Origin: Vicinamibacteria bacterium
Lineage (GTDB): Bacteria; Acidobacteriota; Vicinamibacteria; Vicinamibacterales; UBA8438
Direction: 5' to 3'
DNA length: 61,035 bases
Assembly: GCA_022821235.1 (NCBI GenBank)
Contig: JAJEEA010000534.1
Coordinates: 1-61,035, forward strand
Positions 38,050 to 61,035 of the stretch are shown piece after piece (within the stretch, counting starts at the first letter, position 1; every line of letters begins with the position of its first letter). Under the pieces are notes generated by a model, which saw nothing but the letters and a program-made list of their open reading frames with translations, ran no database searches and was not told the DNA's origin. The position numbers were made by a program, and so were the translations under genes.

Positions 38050-39336
38050 TCAGACGACCCCGTCGGCGCGAAACGTCCGGATCTCCGCGTCGCTGTAGCC
38101 GGCCGCGCGCAGCACCTCGTCGGTGTGCTCGCCGAGCAGGGGCGGGGCGCGGTCGATGCGGCCGGGGGTGTCGCTCAGCTCGATGGGCTGGCCGATCATC
38201 CGCAACTGCCCGGCCGTGGGGTGCGGGTGGTCGACGACCTTGCCGCGGTCGGTGAGCTGGGGGTTGGTGCAGACCTCGGCCACGTTGCGGATGCGGCCGC
38301 ACGGCACGCCGGCGCGGCCGAGCACGTCCATCCACTCGGCGACGGTGCGCGAGGCGGTCAGCTCGACGATGATCGGCACCAGCACGCCGCGGTGCTTCAC
38401 GCGGTCCGGCGCGGCCGCGAAGCGCGGGTCGTCGCGCAGGTCGGGGCGCCCCACGGCGTCGCAGTAGCGCGCCCACAGCGAGTCGTTGGCGATGCCCAGG
38501 TTGATCCAGCCGTCGCGGGCCCGCAGGGTCTGGTAGGGCACCACCGAGGGATGGTCGTTGCCGCGGCGGGTGGGGCTCTCGCCCGACGCGAAGTAGTTGC
38601 CGGCGTTGTAGGTCAGCAGCGACGCCACCGCGTCGAGCATCGCGACGTGCACGTGCTGCCCCCGGCCCGTCGACTGCCGCGCGTAGAGGGCGAGGAGGAT
38701 GCCCTGGGCGGCCATCATCCCCGCCGTGAGGTCGGCGATGGAGGTGCCGACGCGCGACGGCGGCCCGTCGGCCTCGCCGGTCAGGTCCATCAGGCCCGAC
38801 TCGCCCTGCACGATCAGGTCGTAGCCGGGGCGGCTCGCGTCGGGCCCGCCCTCGCCGAACCCCGAGATCGAGCAGTACACGACCCGCGGATGCCGCGCCG
38901 CCACCGCCTCGTAGTCGAGGCCGAGCCGGGCCACGGCGCCGGGGCGGAAGTTCTGGACGACGACGTCGGCGCCGGCGACGAGCCGCCACACGATGGCCCG
39001 GCCCGCCTCGTGCTTCAGGTTGACGGTGCAGCTCCGCTTGTTGCGGTTGACGGAGAGGAAGTAGGGCGCCTCGCCCCCGAGGAACGGGGGGCCGAACGCG
39101 CGTGACTCGTCGCCGCGGCCCGGCTCCTCGATCTTGACGACGTCGGCCCCCATGTCGCCGAGGGTCATCGTGCACCAGGGGCCGGACACGACCCGGCTCA
39201 GGTCGATGACCCGGATGCCGTCGAGGGGCGCGGGACGGTCCCGGTTCGCCCGCCAATGGTCGCCTGTCGGCTCCGTCCGGCGCCCAGCCAACCCGCCAGG
39301 CGGCGCCGTTCCACGGCGCGAACTCCTACCCGACAT
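38050..39336 (-). CDS. Family III CoA-transferase (CaiB/BaiF type)
   Basis: PLDGIRVIDLSRVVSGPWCTMTLGDMGADVVKIE and downstream blocks (GYDLIVQGESGLM, GTSIADLTAG) are typical. The true start may lie downstream of 39336. Confidence 0.9.
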   Translation of the reverse strand: MSGRSSRRGTAPPGGLAGRRTEPTGDHWRANRDRPAPLDGIRVIDLSRVVSGPWCTMTLGDMGADVVKIEEPGRGDESRAFGPPFLGGEAPYFLSVNRNKRSCTVNLKHEAGRAIVWRLVAGADVVVQNFRPGAVARLGLDYEAVAARHPRVVYCSISGFGEGGPDASRPGYDLIVQGESGLMDLTGEADGPPSRVGTSIADLTAGMMAAQGILLALYARQSTGRGQHVHVAMLDAVASLLTYNAGNYFASGESPTRRGNDHPSVVPYQTLRARDGWINLGIANDSLWARYCDAVGRPDLRDDPRFAAAPDRVKHRGVLVPIIVELTASRTVAEWMDVLGRAGVPCGRIRNVAEVCTNPQLTDRGKVVDHPHPTAGQLRMIGQPIELSDTPGRIDRAPPLLGEHTDEVLRAAGYSDAEIRTFRADGVV

Positions 39337-39432
39337 CCGGCCTTCCCGACCCCGTCACCGCCACCCTCTCCGGCCGGATGGCCACGGGGCGAATCGCCCG
39401 GCGCCGACCCCGGCCGTCACCGCCGCGGGGAA

Positions 39433-39482
39433 TGGCACGCCCGGCAGGACTCGAACCTGCGACCCTCGCCTTAGAAGGCCGA
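39433..39482 (-). tRNA. 3' fragment of a tRNA gene (anticodon arm to CCA, anticodon reads TCT = Arg), putative att site
   Basis: The minus strand reads TCGGC-CTTCTAA-GGCGA GGGTC GCAGG-TTCGAGT-CCTGC CGGGCGT G CCA. The T-arm and 3' acceptor are perfect, and 4 of 5 anticodon-stem pairs form. The sequence 5' of this (AAATAAAAGACTTGCATGCCGGGTAT) has no D-arm and no complementary acceptor strand. Confidence 0.6.
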
Positions 39483-39541: not shown

Positions 39542-40645
39542 CTAACTTTCTGCGCCGAACACTGCGCGCCTTTCCGCGGCGGCCGGTGCGCTCGAAGCGC
39601 CGAGGTGCTCCTCGAAACGGGCCGTCGCCAAGCGCATCGCCTCCGGCACATGGCCGAGAGTATAGCGCTCCGTCGTCCGCGTGTCGGAGTGGCCGAGCAC
39701 ATCCTTGACCAGCCGCGTGTCCCCCGCGGCTCGATACAGCGCCGTTCCGTAGCTGTGGCGGAGGTCGTAGGGGCGTACCCCGTGAATCCCGATCCGGGCT
39801 GCGGCCCGGACGAACGCGCGCCAGACTGTGGATGTCGAGAAGGGGCCAATCGCGCCCACGGCTTCCAGGTCGGCCAGCGCTTCGACCGCGGGGGCGCTGA
39901 GCGGAATCGTCCGCGTGCGTCCGCCCTTCCCCGTGTACACGACGAGCGTCTGCGCCGTCCGGTCCCAGTGCTCGGGCCGGTAGCGCATCAACTCGCTGGG
40001 CCGCAGCCCGGTGAAGGCCAGGACGCGGCACCGGACCTTCGCGGCCGATGCAGCGGCGCGGGGTTTTCCCTTGACCATCGCGCTGCCCCGATCCGACATG
40101 GCCGCGAGGATGCGGCGAACCGTGTCGTAGGGGAGTCCGCGCGCTTCCGGGGCCGGATTCGCGAAGGGCTTGACATCCCTCACCGGGTTCGGCGCGTCGC
40201 GACCATCGAGCGCTTGGTACAGCGAGAAGAGCGCTTGACGGTAGTGGTTGCACGTCGATGCCGCGTGCGTCTGCCGCAGTTCGGCGAGCGCGGTCCGCAC
40301 TTCGCCCGGCTCGATGGCGTCGCGCCGGAGGTGGCCGAGGCGCGCCGACCACCATTCCAGTTGCTGGCGACGCTCGGCTACGAGCCGAGGCCGATCGGCA
40401 ATCTGTCGCAGGAAGGGCTCGATGTCGGCGGCCAGAGTACCCGTGGGAGGCTGGGTCAGCTGCAGGGAGGCCCGGGTGTCGACGCGCCAGCGGCGAACGG
40501 TCTCCAGCGATGTACCGACCGGAAAGCGCTTGAAGCGCAACTGTCCGTCAACGCGGACGTAGGCATGGATCCGGCCGCCGGTGTCACGCCGGATGCCGCG
40601 TTCACGGTGAGGTCGCATGGGCGCTTCTTCCACGAATGTCCGCAC
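39542..40645 (-). CDS. Tyrosine site-specific integrase
   Basis: The 367-aa ORF has catalytic-domain signatures: LAFTGLRPSEL (Arg), YDLRHSYGTALY (HxxR) and VLGHSDTRTTERYT (His and the nucleophilic Tyr). Confidence 0.9.
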   Translation of the reverse strand: MRTFVEEAPMRPHRERGIRRDTGGRIHAYVRVDGQLRFKRFPVGTSLETVRRWRVDTRASLQLTQPPTGTLAADIEPFLRQIADRPRLVAERRQQLEWWSARLGHLRRDAIEPGEVRTALAELRQTHAASTCNHYRQALFSLYQALDGRDAPNPVRDVKPFANPAPEARGLPYDTVRRILAAMSDRGSAMVKGKPRAAASAAKVRCRVLAFTGLRPSELMRYRPEHWDRTAQTLVVYTGKGGRTRTIPLSAPAVEALADLEAVGAIGPFSTSTVWRAFVRAAARIGIHGVRPYDLRHSYGTALYRAAGDTRLVKDVLGHSDTRTTERYTLGHVPEAMRLATARFEEHLGASSAPAAAERRAVFGAES

Positions 40646-41306
40646 GGTCCACTTGATCCCCCCCGATCACGGGCGCGTTGACGGGCCGTGGCGACCGTCG
40701 CCCCTGGGTGTGCTTGTTCGGATTGCCGCTGGCGAACTGCCAAGCCGGGCGCGATCCGGTTGCCGGCTGGCTCAGTAGACCGGGATCGACCAGGAGCGGT
40801 TGGGCTTTGCCTCCATGGACTCGGCGAGGACGTGTGTGCCCAACGGCTTCAGAACCGTCTCCGATGTCCTGCTCCACGCTCAGCCCCGGTTCCACTGGCT
40901 CAGTGTATCAGAGGGTCGCGACCGACGGCGGTCCTGCTCCGGCTGGCTGGTGACGATCGGCGAGGGCGGGCTCGTCGTGCGCACCCGGGGCCCGGGTCTG
41001 CTGAGGCCCAAGGACCGGGACCTGATCCCGGCCGAGCCGGACCCCCGCGCCGGCCGGCGCACCGGCGTCCGATAGCGGCCCGGCAACGGTCTCGGCACCG
41101 GCGAACACCCCGTTCCCGGACGACGACGCGGGCGGGACGGAGACCCCCGGCGGGAACCGGCCAGGCACCGGCCCGGCCGGCCGCGAACAGACCGGCGGCA
41201 CCCCAACCGCCGGTCGCGCGCAACGACTACAACCCCGCCGACCTGCGAGACCTCCGTCGCGGCAGCGAATCCCGAGACGGCCGCCACGCACGACGCCGGC
41301 CTGAAG

Positions 41307-41700
41307 GTGAGGGTCGCCGACGAGCTGCGCGTCATCCGGACGTCGCTCGTGAAGGCGCAGTTGGCGGCGGACTTCGCCGACGCGTTCGACCTCGCGCCTA
41401 CGAGTTGTCGCGGTCCGTCTTCGGACCGCCGCAGGCGGCCGACCGGCACTCGACGTCGCTGCGGATCACCGCGACCGCCGAAGCGCCGGCCGGCAGGCCG
41501 CCGCACCGAGACGGACGCGTTCACGGCGGCGGGCCTCGGCGCCGCGCTCATCGAGGCCAACGCGGGAAACCGCAATCTCGACTGGCTGAACGTAGACGAC
41601 GACCGCGACGGTTCAACGCGTTCTGGCGGCTGAGCCTCGAGGCCCGCCGCAACCTGTTCGCCGCCGCGGTCGGCCGGAGCGTCGTGCCCCAACTGTCCTT
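41307..41700 (+). pseudogene. Eroded remnant of an ICE/plasmid ParB-like large protein (multiple frame switches)
   Basis: Protein-like islands appear in different frames: RVADELRVIRTSLVKAQLAADFADAFDLA, then YELSRSVFGPPQAADRHSTSLRITATAEAP, then FNAFWRLSLEARRNLFAAAVGRSVVPQLSFDP. The layout resembles the C-terminal region of ICE ParB-like proteins. This is a recollection only. Confidence 0.3.
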
Positions 41701-41756
41701 CGACCCCCGGCGCCGGGGCCGAGATCGAGGCGCTGATCGAAGCGCCCGCCGGCGGA

Positions 41757-42330
41757 AGGCTCTCCCTTAACGAGCTCACGAGCACGCGCGCCGACCTGCC
41801 GCGGCTGGCATTCCGCAACCCCGGCGTCACCCGCCACAACGCGGAGACCATCAGCGACCTGCTGGCCGACCTGCGGCCGACCGTCTTCGTCATGAACCCC
41901 CGTTCTCGCGGGCCGCGTCGCGCACGACCCTGCAGACCGACATGGACCTGCGGCACGTGTCGGCCCCCTACCGAACGCTACGGCCGGGCGGCCGGCTGGT
42001 CGCCGTCCCGTCAACCGGCTGGGGCCTCTGGCCCCGCTGGGAATCGTGCAGAAGTCCGCCTACGTCAAGAACGTGCCGAGCGCGCCGATGCGGGTTCGTC
42101 GCCGAGGAGGGGTCTTGTACGGTCGCGTGAGGCGGCTTCGACGGTGCGACTGGAAGTCCCCCGCGCCTCCTCGATTGAAGCTGTCAGTCGGCGCTCGGCC
42201 CCAGCATCGAACGCGACTGCTCCGCCGAAGCCCCTCTCAGGGGCCCGTTGAACGCCAAGTCTGCATTGATGAACTCCATGAGCCGTTGGCCGCGTCGGGC
42301 TCAGCACGCGCGCCGTCCCGTCGCGTCCCC
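41757..42330 (+). pseudogene. Eroded N-terminal methyltransferase part of a strawberry-notch-type methylase/helicase gene
   Basis: The reading is LSLNELTSTRADLPRLAFRNPGVTRHNAETISDLLADLRPTVFVMNP, followed by RSRG. Adding one C to the C-run at 41897-41901 restores motif IV (VMNPPFS). Further remnants lie in other frames (RTLRPGGRLVAV). The helicase part is absent. Confidence 0.55.
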
Positions 42331-42471
42331 GGCCGGAACCGACTACAATAGGGACATCGTGACCACGAGAGATCACGGATACCGTCATGCCCGTCCTCAG
42401 CCAAAGCCAACTTCGCCCGGCTTCACCCTGTCACGGTGCCATCTCGTCAGAGATTCACCCGCAGTCCAAGC

Positions 42472-45400
42472 ATGAACGCCACGACCAATGACGCTCACTC
42501 AGCCCTGGGTGCTTCCTCGCCGGCGGTCGCCGCGACTACGGCGCGCGTGTCCAGTCCAGCCTCCACCGGCGGGGCCGGCACCACGTTCGAGCAGCATGTC
42601 GGGGCCTACTGGCTAGCGCAGCTTCTGGTTGGCGCGATCCCGCCAATCGCGATCGACACCACAGTCGCGGTGGTGAGCTTCCAGACCGAGCGTCTGGGCT
42701 GGCACACCGACGACTTCTTGGTCGTCTCCACGGTCGGTGGCGTATCGCGCAATCTCGCCGGCCAGGTTAAACGCACCTTTACTGTCAGCGCGTCGGACCA
42801 GCAGTGCGTGAAGGCCGTCACTGACTTCTGGAAAGACTTCAACGCCCCTCATTTTTTCAGGGACCATGACCGTCTCGCGCTTGTCACACTGCGCGGTACG
42901 AATACGCTTCTTGAACACTTCCTCGGACTCCTCGATTGCGCACGCGCCGCGCCTAGCGCTGCCGAGTTCGAGCAGCGGCTCGCCACCGCTGGCTTCATCT
43001 CCGACACGGCTGTCCGCTATTGCGCCGAGCTCCGTAAAGTCATCGGCGACGTGGAAGCAAACCCGGTCACGGCAGCCGACATCTGGCCGTTCCTGCGCGC
43101 CCTCCACGTGCTGAGCCTCGACCTCCACAGCTCGACGCGACAGACGGAAGCGCACATCAAGAGCATGCTCGCCCTCACCGCCACGGACGGCGACCCCATA
43201 GCGAGCGCCGACGCTTCCTGGAACGAGCTGGTCGTAGAGGCGAGCACGGCGATGACTGCTAGTCGCAGCCTGCGCCGCGATGACCTGCCCGCCGCCACCC
43301 TGCAGCGCCACGGTGTGATCCCCACGAACGAACGCCGCGTGCTCCAGGCACTTCGCGATCACACCGACCCCGTCCTGCGGGCAATACGCTCGACGCTCGG
43401 GCCCAATCTTCATCTGCGGCGCGCCTCACTCGTGCAGAAGCTCCTCGACTCGATCGAGAACGCTCAGGTCACGCTCCTAACCGGACCCGCCGGCTGCGGC
43501 AAGTCGGCCGTGGCCAAGGACGCCCTCGGCCTGCTCGCCGAAAATCACTTCTTGTTTGCATTTCGCGTAGAGGAATTCGCGAAGACCCATCTCGACACCA
43601 CGCTGGACGCCGCCCAGGTCCCTGCGAACTGGGCGCAACTTCACGCTATCCTTGGTGCGCAACACCGCACCGTCCTCCTTGTCGAAAGCGTCGAGCGCCT
43701 GCTTGAGAAAACAACCCGCGACGCGTTTACCGACCTCATGATGCTGATGGCCGACGACAGCGACTTGCGCATTGTGCTCACGTGTCGCGACTACTCACTC
43801 GAACAGGTGCGCACGAGCTTTCTGCAGCCGCATCGTATCAAACATACCGTTGTCCGCGTGCCGCCGCTCGACGACACTGAACTCGCAGAGGCCGAGGTCG
43901 CGTATCCGGCCCTCGCGATTCCCCTCAAGAGCCCGCCATTGCGTGACATCCTGCGCAACCCCTTCGTTCTCGACAAGGCCCTCGATATCCGGTGGTCCTC
44001 CGAGAAATCCCTTCCGCAGACCGAACGCGAATTTCGTACGCTCTTCTGGCGGGAAATCGTGCGCGGTGGCGATCGTGTGACCCCGGCCATGGGACGGCAC
44101 CGTGAAGAGGTGCTCCAGATCATTGCGGTGCGCCGGGCGCGCGCTCTCTCTGCCCATGTTCCTGTGACCGCCCTCGATATTGACGTCGTCGAGTCGCTGC
44201 GCGGAGACTCTCTCATCACATCCGCTGACGACAATCCCTTGCTTGTGGCGACGGCCCACGACGTGCTTGAGGACTGGGCGATCCTGCAATGGCTCGAGGA
44301 GCAGCATCTTTCTGAAGCATCGTTCAAGACGCTATCCCAGACCATCGGAACGCACCCCGCCGTGCGGCGCTCGTATCGCGAATGGCTGGCGGAACTCGTC
44401 GAGCGCCATGCGGAGGCTGCGGACCGCCTGTTTCAAGCGGCTGTGTCGGAAACTGACATCAGCGTTCAGTTTCGCGACGACACGCTGGTGTCGCTGCTTA
44501 AGGCACCGTCGGCCCCCCGCTTTCTCGCGCGCCACGAGGCTCAACTGCTCGCAAACGACCGCACGCTTCTGAAGCGTGTCATTCATCTGTTGCGTGTGGC
44601 CTGCGTGAAGCCCCCAGACTGGCTCCCCGGCTCCGTCGAGCAGGCATCGATCCTCAACGTGCCGGACAGCTCCGCGTGGCCTGCCGTGCTACGCCTCGTT
44701 CATCGCAATCTCGCGGCCTTCACGGCCAACGAGCGACCGCTCCTGCTCGGCCTTGTGGAGGACGCGGTCCGCGGTGTGAGCTGGTGGGCACCCGAGCTCC
44801 ATGGCGCGCAAGATGTCACTAGCGTCGCCCACTGGCTCCTTAACGGCCTGCACAGCTACGGACGCGACGACTCGCGCAAACGCGTGCTCAAGGTCATCGC
44901 CAAGATCCCCAAGGCCGACGCCAACCGCTTCGAGGCCGCACTGCGCAACCACATTGAGGCACCAACAGACGGCGATGTCGTCGCCGAGGACTTCCAAGAG
45001 CTCATTTACGCGGGAATCGAAGGCATGCCCGCTGCGCGCGACTTGCCGGACGTCGTGATCTCCGTGGGTGCCGACTATCTGCTCGCTTCAAAGGAGGACA
45101 TCGACGACGAGCGCCGTTATGGGCTCAGTCCTCTCGACATCGACCTGTACTTTGGGATCAAGAAGGGATTGCGCCACGACTCGTTCCCGCCGAGCGCAGC
45201 GCGCGGTCCGTGGGGCTGCTTGCTGCGCTACCACGCGGAGAAGGCGCTCGATTTCTACATCAAGGTTTTCAACCATAGCGCCGACTGGTACGTCCGTCCC
45301 CGTTTACCTCGCCGTCTCGAGAAGGCATGGGAGGTCGAACTCACCTTCGCAGACGGTACCACACGCAAGCAGTGGACGAACGGCCGCTTGTGGGGCCTTT

Positions 45401-47622
45401 ACCGCGGCATGACGGTCGGGCCCTATCCACTTATGTCGATGCTGATGGCGCTCGAGAGCTGGCTGATCGAGGTCGCACAGAAAAAACCGGAACGGCTGGA
45501 CAGCATTCTCGTCGACATCCTGCGCCGCAGCGACAACGGAGCGCTCGCCGCTGTCGTCGCGAGCGTCTCGACCGCCTATCCCCACGCGTCCGGCGAAGCG
45601 TTGCTGGTGCTCCTTGGCGTTCCTGAGTACGTCACCGCCGATCGCAGCCGACTCGTAGGTGAGCTGCAGATGGCGGGGATGACTGGCATGATCTCGACGA
45701 TGCGCGCTGACCATCAAGTTTACAAGATGGAACGCAAGCACGCGGACACCTTGCCGCACCGACGGTACGATCTGGAGAGGGCGGTTGTTAAAGTCCAGCT
45801 CGGGCCGTTTGCGCCCCGCGTCCACGGGATCCTCGACAATCATCTCGCGACGTTGCCGCCGAAGAATCAACAAGACAAAGACGACCGCTTGTGGCGCCTC
45901 GCCATCCATCGCATGGATCTCCGTCATTACACTGTTTCCGACACATCTGGCCCCGAAATTCCCGAAACACGAGCAAAGGCGAGCGATTCGTCGCGACGCT
46001 ACGTTCGTCTCGAGCCGACGCCGCCCGAGGCGGACGTGCAGGCCATGGTGGATGAAGACGCCTCCCGTCTGGCCGCGATGAACGCCCGGCTTGGCGTGCT
46101 GATGTGGGGTATCCAAGTCTTCGACCGTGAAGCCGGCCAGTACGACCAGTACGACCCCGCACAGTGGGCGGCGAAGCTCGCCGAAGCGCAGGCCATGGAC
46201 CGCCGAGCGGAAGACGACGAACACCAGGCCGAGGACAGCAGTCGGCGCGCGCCTGGTTTTGTGGCGGCTGTGTGTGTTCGTGACCGATGGGACGACATGA
46301 CGTCGGCGCAAAGAGGCTGGTGCGTCGATAAGGTCTGCGCGGAAGTCATGAGACACGCCGACGACGACGTTCACACGGCTCGCGTCCAGGACAACCCCAT
46401 GGCCGCCGGCCGGGCCTGCGCCTTCATGCTAGCGACATTGCTCCGCAAACCACTCGAGCCAACGCGCGCCGAACGGGTGAGGATCGCGTTTGCCGCCGCC
46501 TTCACGCATCCGGTGGAGCAGGTGCGGTCGTACGCGACATCAAGCATCGACGACACCGTGTGGGCCGCCGACCGCGCGCTCGCCTTGCGCTGCGTCAACG
46601 CGATCGCGGCCGAAGCCGTCCTTGTCCACAACGCGCAAGACGCCGAGGAAGCGCGTCCCTATGCTAAGCGTCGCGATTTGGGCGAGATCACGGCGGAGGC
46701 CAGCGCGAACATTCGGGCGCGGTTCTGGAAAGACGGGGGGATTGCCGAGTCCGCGCACGTCACGCTCGACATCTCGGACGGCTTCGGCGCACATGCACTC
46801 AAGCAGATGCTGGTGATCCTGGGGCGCGTGCCGCAGGACCCGATCGCTATTGCGGCGTTCGGCCGGGCGAGCCGTACGCTCGCGGGCTGGTGGACATCCG
46901 ATGACGAGCGGCGAGGCGGAAGCCGGAGGAATTTCCATACCGAATCCGACGTATCCCAATGCATTCAGAGATTTTTGATGCGCACGTCGCCGGAGGCTGC
47001 GCAACGGGTATTGGCGCCTCTGCTCACGACCGTTGACCGCCACCCTAGCGAGCTTAAGTCTGTTATGCAGGGATTGACCGGCCTCCAGGACGCCGACCCG
47101 AACACGCCCCAGTATTGGTTCCTGTGGAGACTGATCGCTGACGTAGTCAAGAGCGCGGATTGGATTGACCGTCTGGACACGGACCGGCACCCAGATGGCA
47201 TCGACCTATTGTCTGCGATTTTTCTGACGTTGTATTGGAAGGACGACGTTCGGCACTGGCGGTTCCTTGATGGCTACGCGCATCTCGTGCACGCGCTTTT
47301 CGATGCTCTGCCGGCAACATCCGTGGTTCTCGACGACTACGCCCGATTTCTCTTCCACATCGGGGAACGCTCGCTACCCGGTGCGTTTGTACGAGTCGGC
47401 GGTGCTCTGCAGCGCGGAAACACGCGGAAGATGCTCGCCAAGTCGAACACGGTCTTCATGCTCGAGGTATTGCTGCAACGGTACGTCTATGGACAACCGC
47501 TCGAACTCAAGCGCGACAAACGTATCCGTGACGCGGTACTTTTCATCCTCGACTGCCTTGTGGAGGCGGGGTCGTCTGCCGCGTTTCGGATGCGCGATGA
47601 CTTCGTCACGCCAGCGGCATAG
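42472..47622 (+). CDS. Giant STAND/NACHT-like NTPase with an N-terminal PD-(D/E)xK (DUF4297/Cap4-like) nuclease domain and a ~1200-aa helical C-terminus (Avs/bacterial-NLR-like)
   Basis: The ORF is intact at 1716 aa from the ATG at 42472 (an alternative GTG lies at 42436). The N-terminus reads GGAGTTFEQHVGAYWLAQLL...HTDDFLVVS-x13-AGQVKRT, a D...QxK motif. Walker A is LLTGPAGCGKSAV (about 43483-43506), Walker B is TVLLVESVE, and the STAND-type sensor is RIVLTCRDYS, followed by NPFVLDKAL. GC looks lower than the flanks. Confidence 0.75.
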   Translation: MNATTNDAHSALGASSPAVAATTARVSSPASTGGAGTTFEQHVGAYWLAQLLVGAIPPIAIDTTVAVVSFQTERLGWHTDDFLVVSTVGGVSRNLAGQVKRTFTVSASDQQCVKAVTDFWKDFNAPHFFRDHDRLALVTLRGTNTLLEHFLGLLDCARAAPSAAEFEQRLATAGFISDTAVRYCAELRKVIGDVEANPVTAADIWPFLRALHVLSLDLHSSTRQTEAHIKSMLALTATDGDPIASADASWNELVVEASTAMTASRSLRRDDLPAATLQRHGVIPTNERRVLQALRDHTDPVLRAIRSTLGPNLHLRRASLVQKLLDSIENAQVTLLTGPAGCGKSAVAKDALGLLAENHFLFAFRVEEFAKTHLDTTLDAAQVPANWAQLHAILGAQHRTVLLVESVERLLEKTTRDAFTDLMMLMADDSDLRIVLTCRDYSLEQVRTSFLQPHRIKHTVVRVPPLDDTELAEAEVAYPALAIPLKSPPLRDILRNPFVLDKALDIRWSSEKSLPQTEREFRTLFWREIVRGGDRVTPAMGRHREEVLQIIAVRRARALSAHVPVTALDIDVVESLRGDSLITSADDNPLLVATAHDVLEDWAILQWLEEQHLSEASFKTLSQTIGTHPAVRRSYREWLAELVERHAEAADRLFQAAVSETDISVQFRDDTLVSLLKAPSAPRFLARHEAQLLANDRTLLKRVIHLLRVACVKPPDWLPGSVEQASILNVPDSSAWPAVLRLVHRNLAAFTANERPLLLGLVEDAVRGVSWWAPELHGAQDVTSVAHWLLNGLHSYGRDDSRKRVLKVIAKIPKADANRFEAALRNHIEAPTDGDVVAEDFQELIYAGIEGMPAARDLPDVVISVGADYLLASKEDIDDERRYGLSPLDIDLYFGIKKGLRHDSFPPSAARGPWGCLLRYHAEKALDFYIKVFNHSADWYVRPRLPRRLEKAWEVELTFADGTTRKQWTNGRLWGLYRGMTVGPYPLMSMLMALESWLIEVAQKKPERLDSILVDILRRSDNGALAAVVASVSTAYPHASGEALLVLLGVPEYVTADRSRLVGELQMAGMTGMISTMRADHQVYKMERKHADTLPHRRYDLERAVVKVQLGPFAPRVHGILDNHLATLPPKNQQDKDDRLWRLAIHRMDLRHYTVSDTSGPEIPETRAKASDSSRRYVRLEPTPPEADVQAMVDEDASRLAAMNARLGVLMWGIQVFDREAGQYDQYDPAQWAAKLAEAQAMDRRAEDDEHQAEDSSRRAPGFVAAVCVRDRWDDMTSAQRGWCVDKVCAEVMRHADDDVHTARVQDNPMAAGRACAFMLATLLRKPLEPTRAERVRIAFAAAFTHPVEQVRSYATSSIDDTVWAADRALALRCVNAIAAEAVLVHNAQDAEEARPYAKRRDLGEITAEASANIRARFWKDGGIAESAHVTLDISDGFGAHALKQMLVILGRVPQDPIAIAAFGRASRTLAGWWTSDDERRGGSRRNFHTESDVSQCIQRFLMRTSPEAAQRVLAPLLTTVDRHPSELKSVMQGLTGLQDADPNTPQYWFLWRLIADVVKSADWIDRLDTDRHPDGIDLLSAIFLTLYWKDDVRHWRFLDGYAHLVHALFDALPATSVVLDDYARFLFHIGERSLPGAFVRVGGALQRGNTRKMLAKSNTVFMLEVLLQRYVYGQPLELKRDKRIRDAVLFILDCLVEAGSSAAFRMRDDFVTPAA

Positions 47623-47687
47623 TCGCTACGTTGCTCAAACCTGAGATATTAAGTGGTCAGACGGACGCCAAGCCGGTCAACTAGGAC

Positions 47688-48800
47688 TTACGATGGTTCA
47701 GGCGCGACTATCCTTGCGGGTTGCAGCGCGCCGACGGAACGCGTTGTGTTCCTCTTGGCGAAACTGTGGCAACGGCGTGACGGGGCTGGTTCGAGAGGGA
47801 TCCGTCCTGCATCCGCGGTTCTGTGCGATCTCTTGGATCTCCTCGCCTCATGTTGTCGGCGCGCTTGATTTTCCAATAGCTCGCCTAGTGTCCTTTCTGC
47901 CAGCAAAGCGTCGTCCTTCACCTCGACGATGAACTCCGGCGACGTGAAGAGCGGATTGCCCGGCGACCAGAGCTCGACGCTCTCCGAGTGCTCCTCGTAA
48001 TAGGCGGGGTCGGTGGTCACGCGCAGGCGTTCGCGCATTCCCGGCGACAGCAGACCGTACTCGCGGCGGCCGAGGGGCTGGATGTCGGTTCCCGGCGGCA
48101 TTAGATCGGGCGAGGCGATCACCCGGTCGAGGTCCTTCATGGCCACCGGCGACGGCGCCCGCGCCGGCATCGCGACCTCCGTGTCCACCGTCGCGTCGAT
48201 GTCGAACCCCCCGGTCCGGGCGTCCCTGACCTGACGCTCAATGGCGTCGACCACGTCGCCCCGCCCGCCGGCCTGCGACATGGACGCCAGCTCGCCCGCC
48301 GGCCGGCCGGGGCCCTGGTCCCGGCGCGCACCGCCCGCAAGGGCCGCGCCGGCGATGGTGCTCGGAAGCCGGGCGAGGATCGGTTGCAGAGGACCGACTG
48401 CGCATTCCGGTGAGACCGACCACCGACTCGAACAGGTTGATGCGCGTGCGCAGGGCGCGGTAGACGTCGGTCTCGACGGTGCCGGCGTAGTGCAGGTTGA
48501 CGATGCGGATCGCCGGATGCGCCTGCCCGAGGCGGTCGATACGGCCGATCCGCTGCTCGACCCGCATGGGGTTCCACGGCATGTCGTAGTTGATCAGGGC
48601 GCCGCAGAACTGGAAGTTCAGCCCTTCGGCGGCGGCGTCGGTGCACAGCAGCAGGTCGGCCTCGCCCTCCCGAAAGCGCCGCTTGACCTCGTCGCGGCCG
48701 ATCGTGCTCCACGCCCCGTCGGCGGACCGGACCTCGCCGCCCCTGCCCGAGAAGCACATCAGACGCAAGGTGCCCCCGCGGCGGGCCGCGGGCTGCGACC
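47688..48800 (-). pseudogene. 5'-truncated, frameshifted SNF2-family helicase remnant (C-terminal lobe only)
   Basis: The remnant reads LMCFSGRGGEV...LLLCTDAAAEGLNFQFCGALINYDMPWNPMRVEQRIGRIDRLGQ (helicase motifs IV-VI). After NLFESVVG the reading continues in another frame (GPLQPILARLPSTIAG...MSQAGGRGDVVDAIERQ...). No N-terminal ATPase lobe is present upstream, and the 1359-aa ORF ends at 48880. Confidence 0.7.
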
Positions 48801-48879
48801 CGTTCTCTTCCGGCTCCGGCCCCGGCCGGTCGGCTCCCCCGGGGTCCGGAGCCCGCCAATCGCCCGCGGCCTGTCGTGC

Positions 48880-51800
48880 TCACCACCCGAGGCGCCTTCT
48901 TGCGAGCACGTCGCAATCAACCCGCTCCCCGTCGCGGTCGTACATCCTAGCGATGCCCTCGAGGATCGTCGCCACGTACGGGTAATCGATAACCCGCTGC
49001 GCGGCCCAAGCACGATACCGCACCGCCAGCTCCCGCTCCTGTACGCCACCCTCGTCCACGCCACGCCAGCAGGCACCGCGGGCGTTGTACACTCCGATCT
49101 GAAAGCCCTCGGCGACATCCTGGGAGGCCACGCTCTCCAGAACCTCGCAGACCGGCCGGCACGGCCAGGAACCGTCTTCATCCGCAGGCGCCGTGGAAAG
49201 CAATTCACCGACCCGACTGTCACCGATTCCCGCTCGCCCATGCTCTCTACACAGGCGTCGTACCTCCGTGACCCATTCACTGAGCACCCCCGCGTCCACC
49301 CTTCCCTCCGGGTCCACGCCCGGCATGCGTCTGACGTTCTTGAGCAATCGATACGCCGCCGCGCTCAGGACGTTCCGTCGCTCAGGGTCGTCAACCCGCC
49401 ATTGAGGCGGATCCTGTCCATTATCGTCGCGCTTCGCGAGGAGAGCAAGAGCTTCAACAAAGACAACGGGCGACTCCGAGATCCTCCGTTCGAGATTCGG
49501 AATGGCCTTCTTGATGCGGCTCAGTTCCTGGATGAACGCGAACTCGAGTCGCGCCATCTCTGCCACGGTCACTTGCGGCCTGCCACCGAGAGAACTAAGC
49601 GCCATCGAAAGCCGGCATATCTCGCCGTCATGGCCAAACTCCATGCCGGTCTCCGCGACGGCCCACAGGACTCGCTTTAGTCGTGACGTCTCGACCTGAT
49701 CCCAATCGTGTTGAACCGCCGAATAGGCCACTCCCGGACGCCCAACCTTTAGGAGGTTGTCAACCAGTTCCGTTGCCTCGGACTCCGCAAAACGCGCCAC
49801 TTTCGGAGTGACGACCTGCCAGTACTGCTCCCTTATGTGTTCCGGCTGCCCGTCCAGGAGACGCCAAGTCTGGTCACGGAACGGTGCCGACGTGAAGACG
49901 CGAACGATCTGTTCGACGTTACCGACCTTCCCGATGTTCGAAAGGAACACCGAACGCACGTCTTCGTTCACGAACCAGAGGAAGCCACCCATGAAGCCGT
50001 CGATCTTCTCGCAAGAAACCGCATCCACGGACAGACAGGATCGAAGAACGCGCAACGCCGCCGAGGTTTCGCCTGCACAGTACGCCGTGTAGCGCCCTAT
50101 GGTCCACGCGTCGCCGCTCGCCAGCAGCCCAAGCGGACCGTCGAGTCCACGCGCCGACCAGATGCCGGTCATCGCCGCCTTGCGAAGTTCGTCCAACCGT
50201 TTTTCCTGTTCCTCGAAGTCGACATCTTCTCCATCACGCTCGTCAACGGGACCGGGCACCCACTCGTGGGCAAAGAGCCACGAATGGCGACGAACCGGAT
50301 CGCGCGGCGTGAGTTTCTCACAGATGGTCCGTGCTCGGTCGCGCTGATCGGCTCCCAGGGCACGGTGAAACCCGCCGCGGGTAAGAAACATGATGCGGAC
50401 TTTTTCCCGCAACGCAGCCTTGGCTTCTTCGTCGGCATCGCTCTGCGCCCATTCGGCGATGCGCCGCCATACTGACGACCGATCCTCGTTCGACATGGCT
50501 CCGAGACGATCGAGCAGGTGCCCGAGCGTCGTTCCGTTGTGGGTCGGCCACTGGATGGCGAGGTCCAGTGCCTTGCGGACAAACTGGGACCGTTCTCCGC
50601 TCAGTAGCGGTTCGCCGGCCCCGGCAGCATCGTTTCGCCAACGTGGGCGGTCGTTGGGAGAGGCGATCTGTTGACCAGTTTCGAACTGCTGGACGCAGAG
50701 TTGCCATCCGATTTCGGGGAAGCGCCGACACAGCGTCTCGATCGCACGGAGTCTGTCATTGAGGGGCGCGGCGGTCTGAGGCATCCACCAACGAAGTATG
50801 GCGGACAGGCTGTTCAGGGGACTATTGAGCCAGTTGTCATTCACTCTCGTTTGCGAGAGTTCGGCGAGAATAGCGACGACTCGCACGAACGTGCGCGGAT
50901 TCCAGGCCAAACGCTCCAGCGCCCAGAGGACGCCAGTACGCCAGGGCTGCTGCAGCATGCTGGGGCCGGCCGACTTCAGGAGTTCCTGCAGACACGGATT
51001 GGGCTGCGCGATATCGGCTTCCAGCAAGGCGAGGAACGCCTCCGGGGCGGCCTCGGCGTACCCCGGAAGGTCACGGTCGTGTGATTTCAATCTGTCGCTC
51101 GTGAAGGGTGTAAGAAGACGCGTGACGAGCGCCGCGATGTAATCCGCGACGTCGATGCCGAGACGCGCCCGGAACCAGTCGTTCCCGTGAACCGACAGCA
51201 TTGCGAGGCTGTCGCAAACTCCTATGCGCAACGCGTCCGAATGTTCACGCACCCTGCCGTAGAGACCGGCAGCCCATCGTTGGTCGTCCGGGAGTGCCAA
51301 TGACGGGTCGGACTCGGAGAGGACGTACTCGGCGAAATCCACAAAGTCGACAATGTCCTTCCGGGTCATCCATCGACGGATTGCGGACAGGGCGTCGATC
51401 TTGGAGACGACTCCGCGGTACCGATCGACGCACCAGACCGGGCTGTCGTCTCGCTGCAGCAGACCGACGACGTGCTTCTCGACATCGTCGTAGTCGCAAC
51501 GGCCAATCGCCGCCAGGACCTCCCGGTCCGCCCTGGATGCTGCGTGCCATGCGCCAACGAGAACCATCGGCAGAAGACGCCGCGCAACGGACTCCGTGGC
51601 GGCCCATGACGGTTCGCTGATGGCGGGAATCGGGGACAGCCGTCGACGCAGCACCGTCGGCGAACGCCCCGAAGCACTGGCCAGCCGGTCGATCCGCGCG
51701 CGCTCGGTGAATCCCATGTGCGCGAGCGCCTTCCGGAACGGCTCGTGGCCGAGCAGCTCGACGGCGATGTCGGGTCGCCGATCGACCGCGTTGCGGGGCC

Positions 51801-53692: not shown

Positions 53693-56600
53693 CACGATTC
53701 GGCCGCGTGCACCGTCGCCGACACGTAGGCGGCCCCTCCCGCGAAACGGGACAGACGTTCGGTGAAGGCCTCGGCCGCGTCGCCGGCCGTCGGCAGGCCG
53801 TCGGCGAAGGTCAGCTCGAAGCCGGCCTCCAGGTTCCGGGCGGTCGCGTCGCGCAACTGCGGCTCGAGGAACTCGCGCACGGGCTGGGCGTCGGTCACCG
53901 GCCCGCGGAATTCGATCTGGAACGAGCCGCCGTCGCGGGTCTCGTACCCGCCGGTGAAGGTGACGACCTTCTCCGCCCGCTGCACGCCGCCGACGCTGCC
54001 GAGGAGCCGAAAGGCGTCGCCGGCCTCGAACATGCGAATCGTCAGCATGCCGACGCGCTCGATGCCCCTGCCGCGCGCCTGCTCCCAGAGCTGCGTCAGC
54101 GCGTCCCTGAGCACGCCCTCCGCCGTCAACGCATCGGGCGGCGGCGGGGGTGGAACAGGCGGGTCGGGTCCCGGAAGCACGGGCGGGTCCGGCTTCGGGG
54201 GCACGGGCGGGTCCGGTTCCGGCGCATCCGGCGCCGGCCTCGGCCAGATGCCACGGTTCTTCGCGAACGCCATCGTGAACACGAGCGACTGCTCGTCGAT
54301 CACGATCTCCGCGAACGGGTCCCCGGGGCCGAGCAGCAGGTCGCCCCGCCGGTAGACGTACTCGCCCTGCTCGACCCCCAGCCGGACCCCGCGGACGAAC
54401 ACGTCGTCGCCGACGAGCATCGGCAGGCCGGGGTCGCGCCGGAACTCGTTGCGCAGCGCCGCGGTCGTGATCTCCCCCTTCTTCAGGGGCGTGCGGTCGC
54501 GCACGTAGGCCGGCGAGTCGGGCTCGTCCTCGGGGTGGCGCAGCTTGTTGAGGTCGGCGAGCGCCCGCGCGACGTGCCGCTGGCCGGCGCCCGGCTGGTC
54601 CGACGTCGAGTGGATGTCGATGGCCGAATGCGCCAAGTCGACGTCGGCCGACTCCACACGGTGGCGCGACGGGTAGAAGACGTGGCGGTAGCACTGCTGG
54701 ACGGCGAGCGCGAGCTCCTGCCTCCGACCGCGCCTCCAGCTCGCACACCTTGTCCCCGCTGGTGCTCGGCCAGGTGGGCGAGCCGGCTCGGGCTTCCTCA
54801 ACTCGCGCAGGGCCAACCGGCGCGACGCGTGCCGGCGCATATCGGCCTTGCGGGCGTCGTCGGCCACCACGAAGACGACGTTGTTGCGCAGGAGCCGCAG
54901 CGCCGACCCGTCCGAGCCCTTGCGCAGATAGAGGCGCCGCACCAGCTCCGGGACATCCTCGGCCGCCCCGACGCTCACCGCGTCGTAGGCGAGCACGACG
55001 AGCTTCGGCCGCCCGTGGCCCACGTCGTCGGGCACGTCGAGGGGCCGCCGGGGAACCGGATCGCGTCGAACGCGCCGCCAAGGAAGACCTGCCCGATGCG
55101 GTCGTTCAGCTCGGCGCGGGCCTCGCCGGAATCGGACATTCTTCTCCTCGCGGCGGATGATCTGGGTGAGGTTGGCCTCGGCGAGGAACCGCATCGGCGC
55201 GCCGGGCCGGTCGTCGAGGTAGGCCGACTCCTGGACGAACTTCTTCCGCGCCTTCCTCGATGAAGCTGACCTCGGACGTCGGCCCCAGCATCGAATAGCG
55301 CAACTGCTCGGGCGACAGCCCCTTCAGCGGCTCGTTGAACGCCAGGGTGTGCATGAAGATGGTGCGCGCCACGTACGCGGCGTAGGGCGGCAGGCCCCCG
55401 TGGTGCTTCGCGTCGATCTCCTCGGCCAGGGCGCGGCCGCCGCCCGAGCCGGCCACGTCGTTGGCGATGGCCGGCACGTAGGCGGACTGCTGCAGCCGGG
55501 TGACGATCTCCTGCCGGACGGACTCGCGGCCGGGGTCGACGTGGTGCAGATGAATGGCGGTGGCGTCGGCGGGCCGGGTCTCCCAGAGATGCGCGATGGT
55601 CCGCGCCAGCAGCCGCAGCATGCCGCGGACGCGCTGGAACGTGTCGAGCGTCGCCGTCTTCGACGTCAGCGTCTGCAGGACCTCGGGGTGCAGCGGATAG
55701 CCCGCCCGGAAGGCCTCGGCCGTCTCCGGCCGGGCGGCGTCGTCGGCGATGGCCTCGCGCTTCGCGGACCACGCCGCCTGATAGGCGGCCACCGCGTCCC
55801 GCGCGGCGTCTTCGTCGATGAATTCGAAGAGGCGCCGGCGCAGCACCTGGGCGGTCTCGTCCTCCTCGGTCGGGTTGAGCAGCGTCGCCTTCCGCGCCGA
55901 GACGCTCTCGGCCTCGGCCATCCGGTCGGCGATGAACTGGTTCTCCGCCGAGTACGCGTCCACCGCCCGGCCCTCCTTGCCGATGGCCAGCCGTGTAGAC
56001 CAGGGCCGCGCGCGGCGTCCCCTCCACCGCCTTGAAGAGCGACGTCAGGAACGCGGTCAACTGGTCGCGCGCCGCGCCGTTCCGCTGCACCTTGCGGAGG
56101 TACACCGAGAGCTCGTCGAGGAGGATGAGCGTCGGCTCGCCGCCGAACAGCTCGCGCAGCGTGTCGGCCCCCGGCGCGACGCCGCCGGCGTCGCTGTTCC
56201 TCACCCGGTCGTAGCCCGCCGCCCCGGCGAGGGCGTAGGCCAGCTCGCCCCACGGCGTGTGCGCGCGGACGCCCTCCCCCATCGTCCGTCCGTTGGCCGG
56301 GTCGGCGTTCTCGCCGTCGAAGGCCGCGAGGCGCACCGGCCCCTCGGGCAGGAGCGACGCGTCGATGAACTCGTCCACCCCGGCCACCCGCGGCAGCCCC
56401 CGCGCCGCGTGCGCCAGGGCGATCAGACCGTGCGTCTTGCCGCCGCCGTACGAGGTGTCGAGTCGGAATGGCGGCCCCTTCGCCCCCGGCGCCGCTCAGG
56501 CGCCGGCAGACATTGGCGAGCAGGTTCTTCAGGCCGCGGGTCGGATAGGTGTTGGCGAAGAACCGGACGGGATCGACGTACTCGGGGCTTCCGCCGCCCG

Positions 56601-60381: not shown

Positions 60382-61035
60382 ATGACCGAAAACCGCCGGC
60401 CGCACCCGCCGCGCACGCGCAAGGCGCCGGCCGATCCCCGGCCACCCATGACCTGGTTCCAGCCGTCCCCGCGGCCGCCGTTCCACGCCGCGCGCGGCCG
60501 CCCCCCCGCGGGCCGAAGCCTCGAGATATCGAGCCGCAGCCGCGACCCGCTCGGCCGCGACCTCAGCGCCATGAACCTGCCCGCCGCGGGCGACCCGCGC
60601 CGACGGCCGGTCGAGGCCGTGTACCAGGCCGCGAAGTGCTACGGCGGCGGCGGGCCCGACGCGCCCGGGTGCGACTCCGGGTACGCCGCGAAACGCCGCG
60701 ACCGGGAGCGCCGGCGGGACGGGCCGCTGGCCGCCTTCGAGCACGAGGGGCGCCGCTGGCCGACCGGGACCGGCTCGGCGTTCTACGACTGGCTCTGGAC
60801 CCGGAGCGCGATCGAGCGGTGGGGGATCGGGGTCGTCGACCGCCTGCGGGAGTACGGCGCCTTCAGCGACCAGTTCCACCACGCCGGGGCGCTGGCGTGC
60901 CAGGCGAAGACCGCCGCCGTGGTCGCGGGCATGGGACGGACGATGGCGCAGGCCGCGATCGAGAGCCCCGAGGCCTGGCTGCGCGAGACGCGGGGAGCGG
61001 CCGACCGGCGGCCGCCGGCCCCGCGCGCGGCGGCG
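60382..61035 (+). CDS. Hypothetical conserved-looking protein, C-terminus beyond the window
   Basis: The ATG at 60382 lies 5 nt after the previous stop, so the ORF is absent from the track (no in-window stop). My translation after a P/R-rich N-terminus gives LSAMNLPAAG...VEAVYQAAKCYGGGGPD...AAKRRDRE...AFEHEGRRWPTGTGSAFYDWLWTRSAIE...YGAFSDQFHHAGALACQAKTAAVVAGM. Confidence 0.5.
   Translation, partial: MTENRRPHPPRTRKAPADPRPPMTWFQPSPRPPFHAARGRPPAGRSLEISSRSRDPLGRDLSAMNLPAAGDPRRRPVEAVYQAAKCYGGGGPDAPGCDSGYAAKRRDRERRRDGPLAAFEHEGRRWPTGTGSAFYDWLWTRSAIERWGIGVVDRLREYGAFSDQFHHAGALACQAKTAAVVAGMGRTMAQAAIESPEAWLRETRGAADRRPPAPRAAA

What the first reader, a model, noticed from the sequence alone, without database searches (positions are those of the whole stretch)
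42436..47622. 1716-aa nuclease-STAND (Avs/bacterial NLR-like) protein with a very large unassigned sensor region
**Domains.** The domain order matches antiviral STAND NTPases: effector, then NTPase, then sensor. The N-terminal domain has a D80-D81...Q98-x-K100 arrangement (HTDDFLVVS...AGQVKRT) after a GGAGTTFEQHVGAYW start, like DUF4297/Cap4-type PD-(D/E)xK nucleases. The P-loop (GPAGCGKS), Walker B (LLVES) and the hhhTxR sensor motif (IVLTCRD) fit a NACHT/STAND core. The ~1200-aa C-terminus shows no TPR or WD pattern that I can recognise, so its ligand specificity is open.

**Context.** It is convergent with, and 1.2 kb from, the HTH giant. It has replaced the helicase half of a strawberry-notch-type gene. 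GC looks lower than the chromosome.
Basis: partly seen in the sequence, partly recalled or inferred. Interest (0 to 1): 0.6.

Follow-up and report, generated by a model that had tools for sequence, protein, structure and literature searches.

The report
Avs4 phage sensor with Cap4 nuclease
This intact 1716/1728-residue gene encodes a member of the known Avs4 family of bacterial antiviral receptors, whose studied members sense the phage portal protein. It carries a Cap4-type DNA-cutting head and sits on a horizontally acquired island, so it is a sound annotation and not a new kind of system.

Summary
The ORF at 42436-47622 (+) is real and intact. It is 1728 aa from the GTG and 1716 aa from the ATG at 42472.

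- **NTPase.** A STAND NTPase (Pfam nSTAND1) with the Walker A, Walker B and TxR motifs conserved across 62 homologues.

It is the Avs4 sensor:
- NCBIfam Avs4 gives E 4.6e-141 over residues 298-1722.
- PDB 8DGF (EcAvs4 bound to phage portal) gives E 1.2e-56 by sequence.
- The predicted sensor fold matches 8DGF at TM 0.70 over about 1220 columns, and nothing else exceeds about 0.2.

The likely trigger is therefore the phage portal protein, and the likely output is oligomerisation-activated DNA cleavage.

The protein belongs to a very large subfamily (1545 clusters at 50% identity) that spans many phyla and has no conserved neighbour gene. Here it lies in a low-GC segment of a genomic island integrated at tRNA-Arg. 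It sits where the helicase half of a strawberry-notch-type gene is missing.

This scan has already reported the same Cap4-Avs4 family on other DNA in at least 7 genomes. It is a new member of a known kind.

The parts
42436..47622 (+). Complete Avs4-family gene. 1728 aa from the GTG at 42436. The alternative ATG start at 42472 gives 1716 aa.
   Evidence: ORF list and translation. NCBIfam Avs4 E 4.6e-141 and PADLOC Avs4 E 1.8e-134. The database gene call is 1716 aa. No clear promoter or Shine-Dalgarno consensus lies before either start.
42556..43350 (+). N-terminal Cap4/DUF4297-like PD-(D/E)xK nuclease head (about residues 29-293 from M13). Putative active-site residues are E40, D80/D81 and Q98-x-K100.
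43420..43911 (+). STAND NTPase core (Pfam nSTAND1, residues 329-492 from the GTG). Walker A is GPAGCGKS, Walker B is VLLVES, and the sensor-1-like motif is IVLTCRD.
   Evidence: Pfam nSTAND1 E 1.8e-9, 38.2 bits against a cut-off of 27.1. Weaker nSTAND3 and NACHT hits. The motifs align with those of EcAvs4 (GEGGVGKT, VIVVDS, VVFTTRN). Conservation.
44113..47619 (+). Avs4-type all-helical sensor (about residues 560-1728 from the GTG). The presumed ligand is the phage portal protein.
   Evidence: The Avs4 HMM covers residues 298-1722 in one stretch. 8DGF aligns at residues 302-1171 and 1558-1722. Predicted model pLDDT 84.6. Foldseek 8dgf_B E 1e-32, TMq 0.70 over 1223 columns, with the next hits at TM 0.2 or less.
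39432..39480 (-). 3' fragment of tRNA-Arg(TCT). It is the att-type boundary of the island that carries the gene.
   Evidence: Sequence read. 96% identical over 50 nt to the intact tRNA-Arg(TCT) on contig C426 of the same genome.
39542..40645 (-). Tyrosine recombinase (island integrase).
   Evidence: Pfam Phage_integrase E 9.8e-21. Related integrases lie beside the same CoA-transferase gene in two same-genus genomes.
41278..42021 (+). Eroded N-terminal remnant of a strawberry-notch-type gene. The remnant ends just before the Avs4 gene.
   Evidence: 67-77% nucleotide identity to the interior of a 1994-aa ORF in genome G001 that carries AAA_34 and Helicase_C_4 domains. No intact frame and no Pfam hit in the window.

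Best explanation
The gene encodes a single-protein antiviral STAND receptor of the Avs4 family, fused to a Cap4-type PD-(D/E)xK nuclease head.

The proposed mechanism is taken by analogy with EcAvs4 and SeAvs3, and every step below is inferred:
1. In the resting state the head is held inactive.
2. On infection, the large helical sensor binds newly made phage portal protein.
3. Binding lets the ATP-bound NTPase modules oligomerise, probably into a tetramer.
4. Oligomerisation brings the nuclease heads together into active dimers.
5. The heads cut double-stranded DNA non-specifically and abort the infection.

Shown here:
- Homology of the NTPase and of the whole sensor to Avs4.
- The Cap4-like fold of the head, with conserved acidic and lysine residues at the expected positions.
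- Intactness of the gene.
- Stand-alone organisation of the family.
- Carriage on an integrated island.
For: - **Family assignment.** NCBIfam Avs4 E 4.6e-141 over residues 298-1722, equal to profile positions 157-1577 of 1579. PADLOC Avs4 E 1.8e-134, with no other Avs type listed at E up to 1.
- **Solved relative.** PDB 8DGF EcAvs4 E 1.2e-56, with Walker A, Walker B and sensor-1 aligned. The sensor model matches 8DGF at TMq 0.70, E 1e-32, over 1223 columns, while all other hits have TM 0.21 or less.
- **Annotated relatives.** E. coli and Salmonella plasmid genes annotated 'AVAST type 4 anti-phage nuclease Avs4' match at 22-23% identity over residues 298-1302.
- **Conserved residues.** E40, D80, D81, Q98 and K100 are invariant or nearly so.
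- **Self-association of the head.** Predicted homodimer ipSAE 0.55 (three runs 0.60, 0.42, 0.55) against a best control of 0.00. This mark was reached by 20 of 30 proteins solved as pairs of one chain and by 1 of 23 solved as single chains. The runs agree in at least 72% of contacts, and partner pLDDT is at least 85. Similar Cap4 dimers are solved, so the pass may be from memory.
- **Stand-alone organisation.** No neighbour family is shared by more than 3 of 63 loci.
- **Literature.** Avs3 and Avs4 are phage-activated DNA endonucleases (PMC11564622). The nuclease heads of Avs3, Avs4 and Avs7 mediate tetramerisation (bioRxiv 10.64898/2026.08.25.746987). A Streptomyces Avs4 sensor fused to a PD-DExK head from another Streptomyces Avs4 gave portal-dependent toxicity (PMC12642450). 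KpAvs4 is drawn with a Cap4 head (PMC13673623).
Against: - The match to NCBIfam Avs4 scores 471.6 bits, far below the equivalog cut-off of 1500. Identity to enterobacterial Avs4 is only 18-23%. Ligand specificity could therefore have drifted.
- The head has no sequence-level match to Pfam Cap4/DUF4297 in any of 40 family members. Its nuclease assignment rests on fold and motif positions only.
- The equivalence of K100 to the catalytic lysine of Cap4 is inferred from alignment offsets. It was not read from a residue-level superposition.
- No portal protein was tested, and no expression signals were found.
Confidence: 0.85

Rival explanations
1. The protein has an Avs4-derived scaffold but a different trigger. 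This deep branch of the family has re-targeted its sensor to another phage protein or to several. Its nuclease output is unchanged.
For: - Only 18-23% identity to the characterised enterobacterial Avs4.
- The score is far below the equivalog cut-off.
- The middle of the sensor (about residues 1172-1557) is not aligned to EcAvs4 by pairwise phmmer. It is also the least conserved part within the subfamily (0.42-0.47 column identity).
- Another Avs family (KpAvs2) recognises several different phage proteins (PMC11564622).
Against: - The family HMM and the predicted fold cover the whole sensor co-linearly with portal-bound EcAvs4.
- A distant Streptomyces Avs4 homologue still responded to phage portals in E. 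coli (PMC12642450).
Confidence: 0.1
2. The gene is a decaying passenger with no current function. It sits among pseudogenes in an eroded island and may be silent or inactive.
For: - Its neighbours are eroded: the strawberry-notch remnant upstream, a helicase C-terminal stump at 48238-48768, and a DUF499 fragment at 55106-55963.
- No sigma-70-like promoter was found.
Against: - A 5.2-kb frame without a stop.
- Full-length co-linearity with homologues of about 1708 aa.
- Every catalytic and nucleotide-binding residue is retained.
- The promoter scan covers only one promoter type and found none anywhere in the 6.9 kb scanned.
Confidence: 0.05

Closest known systems
EcAvs4 (AVAST type 4, E. coli; PDB 8DGF bound to phage PhiV-1 portal)
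   Same: - The STAND NTPase and the whole ~1200-aa helical sensor are homologous (E 1.2e-56 by sequence; TMq 0.70 by fold).
- Walker A, Walker B and sensor-1 align.
- The architecture is one gene with head, NTPase and sensor.
   Different: - The head is a ~265-aa Cap4-like nuclease, not the shorter head (~170 aa before the aligned linker) described as Mrr-type. Profile comparison found no similarity apart from the linker before the NTPase.
- Identity is about 18-23%.
- The Walker B acidic residue is Glu here (59 of 62 in the subfamily) and Asp in EcAvs4.
SeAvs3 (AVAST type 3; PDB 8DGC bound to terminase)
   Different: The sensor is of the Avs4 type. PADLOC and NCBIfam listed no Avs3 hit for the NTPase and sensor. 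SeAvs3 senses the large terminase subunit.
Cap4 (CBASS effector, DUF4297), LmuA (Lamassu) and HamA (Hachiman) nucleases
   Different: Those nucleases are coupled to a SAVED domain, SMC-like partners or a helicase partner. This one is fused to a STAND receptor. No Pfam DUF4297 match at sequence level.
KpAvs4 and Streptomyces Avs4 homologues with nuclease heads (PMC13673623, PMC12642450)
   Same: An Avs4 sensor combined with a Cap4 or PD-DExK head. Portal-dependent toxicity is reported for a chimera of a Streptomyces Avs4 sensor with such a head.

Membership tests
Avs4 (AVAST type 4) | Significant match to the family profile across NTPase and sensor | tested here: met
   NCBIfam NF041815 E 4.6e-141 over profile positions 157-1577 of 1579. 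PADLOC Avs4 E 1.8e-134.
Avs4 (AVAST type 4) | Score above NCBIfam's equivalog cut-off (same function as the enterobacterial exemplars) | tested here: not met
   471.6 bits against a cut-off of 1500. The protein is a deep branch of the family and is not an equivalog of EcAvs4.
Avs4 (AVAST type 4) | Sensor fold like the portal-binding domain of EcAvs4 | tested here: met
   Foldseek 8dgf_B E 1e-32, TMq 0.70, 1223 columns. The next best hit has TM 0.21.
Avs4 (AVAST type 4) | Activation by phage portal protein | not testable with these tools
STAND NTPase | Walker A, Walker B and the sensor-1 arginine in an NTPase domain recognised by STAND profiles | tested here: met
   Pfam nSTAND1 at 38.2 bits, above the 27.1 cut-off. 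GPAGCGKS, VLLVES and IVLTCRD are conserved in 59-62 of 62 homologues.
Cap4/DUF4297-type PD-(D/E)xK nuclease | Sequence match to Pfam DUF4297/Cap4 nuclease | tested here: not met
   No Pfam hit for the head of this protein or of 39 relatives at E up to 10.
Cap4/DUF4297-type PD-(D/E)xK nuclease | Fold shared with solved Cap4-type nucleases, clearly above other nucleases | tested here: met
Cap4/DUF4297-type PD-(D/E)xK nuclease | Conserved acidic residues and (E/Q)xK on the core helix and strands | tested here: met
   E40 lies on helix 35-53. D80/D81 lie just before strand 82-88. Q98-x-K100 ends strand 91-100. All are invariant or at least 95% conserved. Residue-level superposition on the Cap4 catalytic lysine was not done.
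Cap4/DUF4297-type PD-(D/E)xK nuclease | DNA cleavage activity | not testable with these tools
   Needs biochemistry.

The most novel reading that the evidence does not exclude
This very widespread Cap4-headed deep branch of Avs4 is only about 20% identical to the studied enterobacterial proteins and has a variable middle sensor segment. It may have re-targeted its sensor to a phage protein other than the portal, or it may sense the portals of phage groups (including archaeal viruses, given a Methanothrix homologue) that studied Avs4 proteins do not see.
Probability: 0.12. Interest if true: 0.45.

Novelty: new member of a known kind. Interest (0 to 1): 0.25.

Why it matters
The value is mainly annotation. 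Pfam recognises only the nSTAND1 core, the NCBIfam Avs4 model scores below its cut-off, and the few source names seen in the protein database read 'hypothetical protein', 'AAA family ATPase' or 'nSTAND1 domain-containing NTPase'. The evidence here types the protein as an Avs4-family receptor with a Cap4-type nuclease head. That gives a concrete trigger hypothesis (the portal protein) and concrete mutants to test.

The subfamily is large: 1545 clusters at 50% identity hold the head. It is spread across Gemmatimonadota, Acidobacteriota, Pseudomonadota, Planctomycetota, Chloroflexota, Bacillota, Cyanobacteria and a Methanothrix MAG at 45-85% identity. A dedicated profile for its head would improve defence-system annotation.

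The finding does not change what is known about how Avs proteins work.

Tried and rejected
- **Pfam on the head and sensor.** Pfam on the head alone (residues 1-320) and on the sensor alone (560-1728) gave nothing at E up to 10. Pfam on 40 heads gave only scattered chance hits.
- **Head against E. coli Avs4.** hhalign of the head alignment against the head of an E. coli plasmid Avs4 aligned only the linker before the NTPase, at probability 4.7%. The two heads are therefore not detectably related. Pfam gave nothing credible for the two E. coli heads either.
- **Related loci.** I repeated the search with the single protein.
- **Upstream eroded DNA.** blastn against plasmids found no match, and Pfam on its stop-to-stop frames gave nothing. 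Its identity came instead from same-genus genomes.
- **Rejected tRNA.** ARAGORN called a 94-nt tRNA-Pro at 41147-41240. Rfam found no tRNA at gathering score in 36-56 kb, so I treat it as a false positive.
- **Primary paper.** Gao et al. 2022 (Science, PMC10028730) is not held in the library. Statements about EcAvs4 and SeAvs3 come from papers that cite it. Supplementary tables of PMC12642450 and PMC13581612 are also not held.
- **Two-gene system.** I considered the idea that Avs4 and the neighbouring 1359-aa HTH gene form one system. Only 1 of 80 related loci (L042) has a homologue of that gene next to the Avs4 homologue, so I rejected it as a rule.
Full report
**1. The observation**

The window has a single open frame at 42436-47622 on the + strand. 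Translation gives 1728 residues from a GTG. Neither start is preceded by a clear ribosome-binding site, and a sigma-70 consensus scan of 42000-48900 found no promoter.

GC content is 62-65% across 42-53 kb against 70-76% in the flanks. Third-position GC of the gene is 0.76, against 0.9 or more for the neighbouring core genes.

**2. NTPase and sensor**

- Pfam places nSTAND1 at residues 329-492 (E 1.8e-9, above the gathering score), with weaker nSTAND3 and NACHT hits.
- The NCBIfam model for Avs4 (NF041815) matches residues 298-1722 to profile positions 157-1577 of 1579, with E 4.6e-141.
- PADLOC's Avs4 model gives E 1.8e-134. No other Avs type appears at E up to 1.
- Against solved structures, the only hit is 8DGF, E. 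coli Avs4 bound to the PhiV-1 portal (E 1.2e-56). GPAGCGKS aligns with GEGGVGKT, VLLVES with VIVVDS and IVLTCRD with VVFTTRN.
- Pairwise phmmer left residues 1172-1557 unaligned. I therefore predicted the sensor (residues 560-1728, 33-sequence alignment A2, pLDDT 84.6) and searched the PDB. 8DGF is the top hit at E 1e-32 with TMq 0.70 over 1223 columns. Everything else is a generic alpha-solenoid at TM 0.21 or less.

The "unassigned" C-terminus is therefore the Avs4 sensor over its whole length.

The caveat is distance. The NCBIfam score of 471.6 bits is far below the equivalog cut-off of 1500. Identity to PGAP-annotated Avs4 genes on E. coli and Salmonella plasmids is 22-23%.

**3. The head**

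Residues 1-300 have no Pfam match. The same holds for 39 relatives scanned one by one.

A phmmer search of 1.84 billion cluster representatives found 1545 proteins with this head at E up to 0.001. Most of those listed are about 1690 residues long, or are fragments.

In a 40-sequence alignment (A1), G33, G36, E40, Q71, D80, D81, D122 and D133 are invariant. Q98 and K100 are at least 90% conserved.

The AlphaFold model (pLDDT 90) puts these residues on the canonical PD-(D/E)xK elements:
- E40 lies on the first long helix.
- D80/D81 lie at the start of the second core strand.
- Q98-x-K100 lies at the end of the third core strand.

|---|---|
| SeAvs3 head (206 residues, rmsd 3.6) | 13.6 |
| HerA-DUF4297 | 13.3 |
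| Cap4 | 13.1 |
| LmuA | 12.4 |
| HamA | 11.9 |
| Ordinary restriction enzymes | about 6 |

The alignment offset to E. cloacae Cap4 (model residue 34 to chain residue 8) would place K100 opposite K74. K74 is the residue mutated in entry 7YIA. This agrees with the assignment, but it is not a residue-level check.

At the sequence level, the head matches only two candidate-defence models in PADLOC: DUF626_VIII in 26 of 40 members and PDC-M54A in 15 of 40.

The heads of two E. coli Avs4 proteins (about 170 residues before the aligned linker, described as Mrr-type in bioRxiv 10.64898/2026.08.25.746987) show no similarity to this one beyond the linker. The two branches carry different heads on a homologous body.

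A two-copy model of the head gave ipSAE 0.55 (runs 0.60, 0.42, 0.55) against a best control of 0.00. That mark was reached by 20 of 30 proteins solved as pairs of one chain and by 1 of 23 solved as single chains. The runs agree in at least 72% of contacts, and partner pLDDT is at least 85. The interface is symmetric. Cap4-type dimers are solved, so this pass may reflect likeness and not independent evidence.

**4. The family**

Close relatives (45-85% identity over the first 608 residues) occur in 179 species-representative genomes found with six peptide patterns. They come from Longimicrobiales, Vicinamibacterales and other Acidobacteriota, Pseudomonas, Paraburkholderia, Halomonas, Marinobacter, Planctomycetota, Chloroflexota, Bacillota, a cyanobacterium and a Methanothrix MAG.

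Most of these loci hold an intact frame of about 1700 residues. All functional motifs are conserved in 62 full-length members. The subfamily uses Glu and not Asp at the Walker B acidic position. The sensor is co-linear in all members down to 28% identity.

Among 63 loci, no flanking protein family is shared by more than three. The gene therefore works, or at least travels, alone.

**5. Local context**

- The left edge of the foreign segment is a 50-nt 3' fragment of tRNA-Arg(TCT) at 39432-39480. It is 96% identical to the intact gene on contig C426.
- A tyrosine recombinase follows at 39542-40645.
- The adjacent CoA-transferase gene is conserved at 89-96% in same-genus genomes. Two of those genomes have related integrases near it.
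- Between the integrase and Avs4 lies frame-broken DNA. Part of it (41278-42021) is 67-77% identical to the N-terminal third of a 1994-aa ORF in a same-genus genome. That ORF carries AAA_34 and the strawberry-notch Helicase_C_4 domain further downstream.
- Downstream lie a Helicase_C stump on the opposite strand (48238-48768), the convergent 1359-aa HTH gene, and DUF499 fragments.

The Avs4 gene is thus intact cargo in a partly eroded, defence-rich island.

**6. Mechanism and comparison**

Published work describes Avs3 and Avs4 as phage-activated, non-specific DNA endonucleases (PMC11564622). It states that Avs4 senses the portal, and that the Cap4 or Mrr heads of Avs3, Avs4 and Avs7 mediate tetramerisation (bioRxiv 10.64898/2026.08.25.746987; PMC13581612).

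A Streptomyces Avs4 sensor responded to phage portals in E. coli. It also did so when fused to a PD-DExK head from another Streptomyces Avs4 (PMC12642450). KpAvs4 is drawn with a Cap4 head (PMC13673623). The architecture of Cap4-type head plus Avs4 body is therefore already in the literature.

I infer the same mechanism here: portal binding, ATP-dependent oligomerisation, paired nuclease heads, DNA degradation and abortive infection. The portal as trigger and the nuclease activity are inferred. The homologies are shown.

**7. Verdict**

The gene is a new member of a known kind.

The same Cap4-Avs4 family has already been reported by this scan on other DNA in at least seven genomes. I reached the same conclusion independently before seeing those notes. 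Interest is low to moderate.

Noticed in passing
window 39246-39334: An ~85-nt element lies just beyond the CoA-transferase gene. It has dozens of copies at 83-87% identity scattered through this genome and its same-genus relatives, so it is a dispersed REP/MITE-like repeat.
   Followed up: no
window 39432-39480; contig C426 of the same genome (L089 1474-1550): A tRNA-Arg(TCT) 3' fragment lies beside the integrase, and the intact tRNA lies on another contig. The island therefore probably extends beyond the window end at 61035 and is at least 21.6 kb long.
   Followed up: partly
L042 4342-7992 (Gemmataceae MAG): A homologue of the neighbouring 1359-aa HTH gene (30% identity over 1249 residues) lies immediately upstream of the Avs4 homologue in this one locus out of 80. 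It may be a recurrent defence-island pairing or a coincidence.
   Followed up: partly
window 42188-42257 and 55272-55344: An imperfect ~70-nt direct repeat (78-88% identity) brackets the 13-kb low-GC block that holds Avs4, the helicase stump, the HTH gene and part of the DUF499 gene. It may be a recombination scar or a shared gene remnant.
   Followed up: no
window 41147-41240: ARAGORN calls a 94-nt tRNA-Pro(TGG) inside the eroded region. Rfam finds no tRNA there at gathering score, so it is probably a false positive.
   Followed up: partly
same-genus genomes G004 (C3: 6639034-6644068) and G006 (C13: 1651383-1657246): Integrases 85-90% identical in DNA to the one in the window lie 2.5-3.4 kb from the same CoA-transferase gene. 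This locus is therefore a recurrent integration site in the genus.
   Followed up: no
window 48238-48768 (- strand): A Helicase_C (PF00271) C-terminal stump lies between Avs4 and the HTH gene, on the strand opposite to the strawberry-notch remnant. It is therefore probably not the missing half of that gene.
   Followed up: partly
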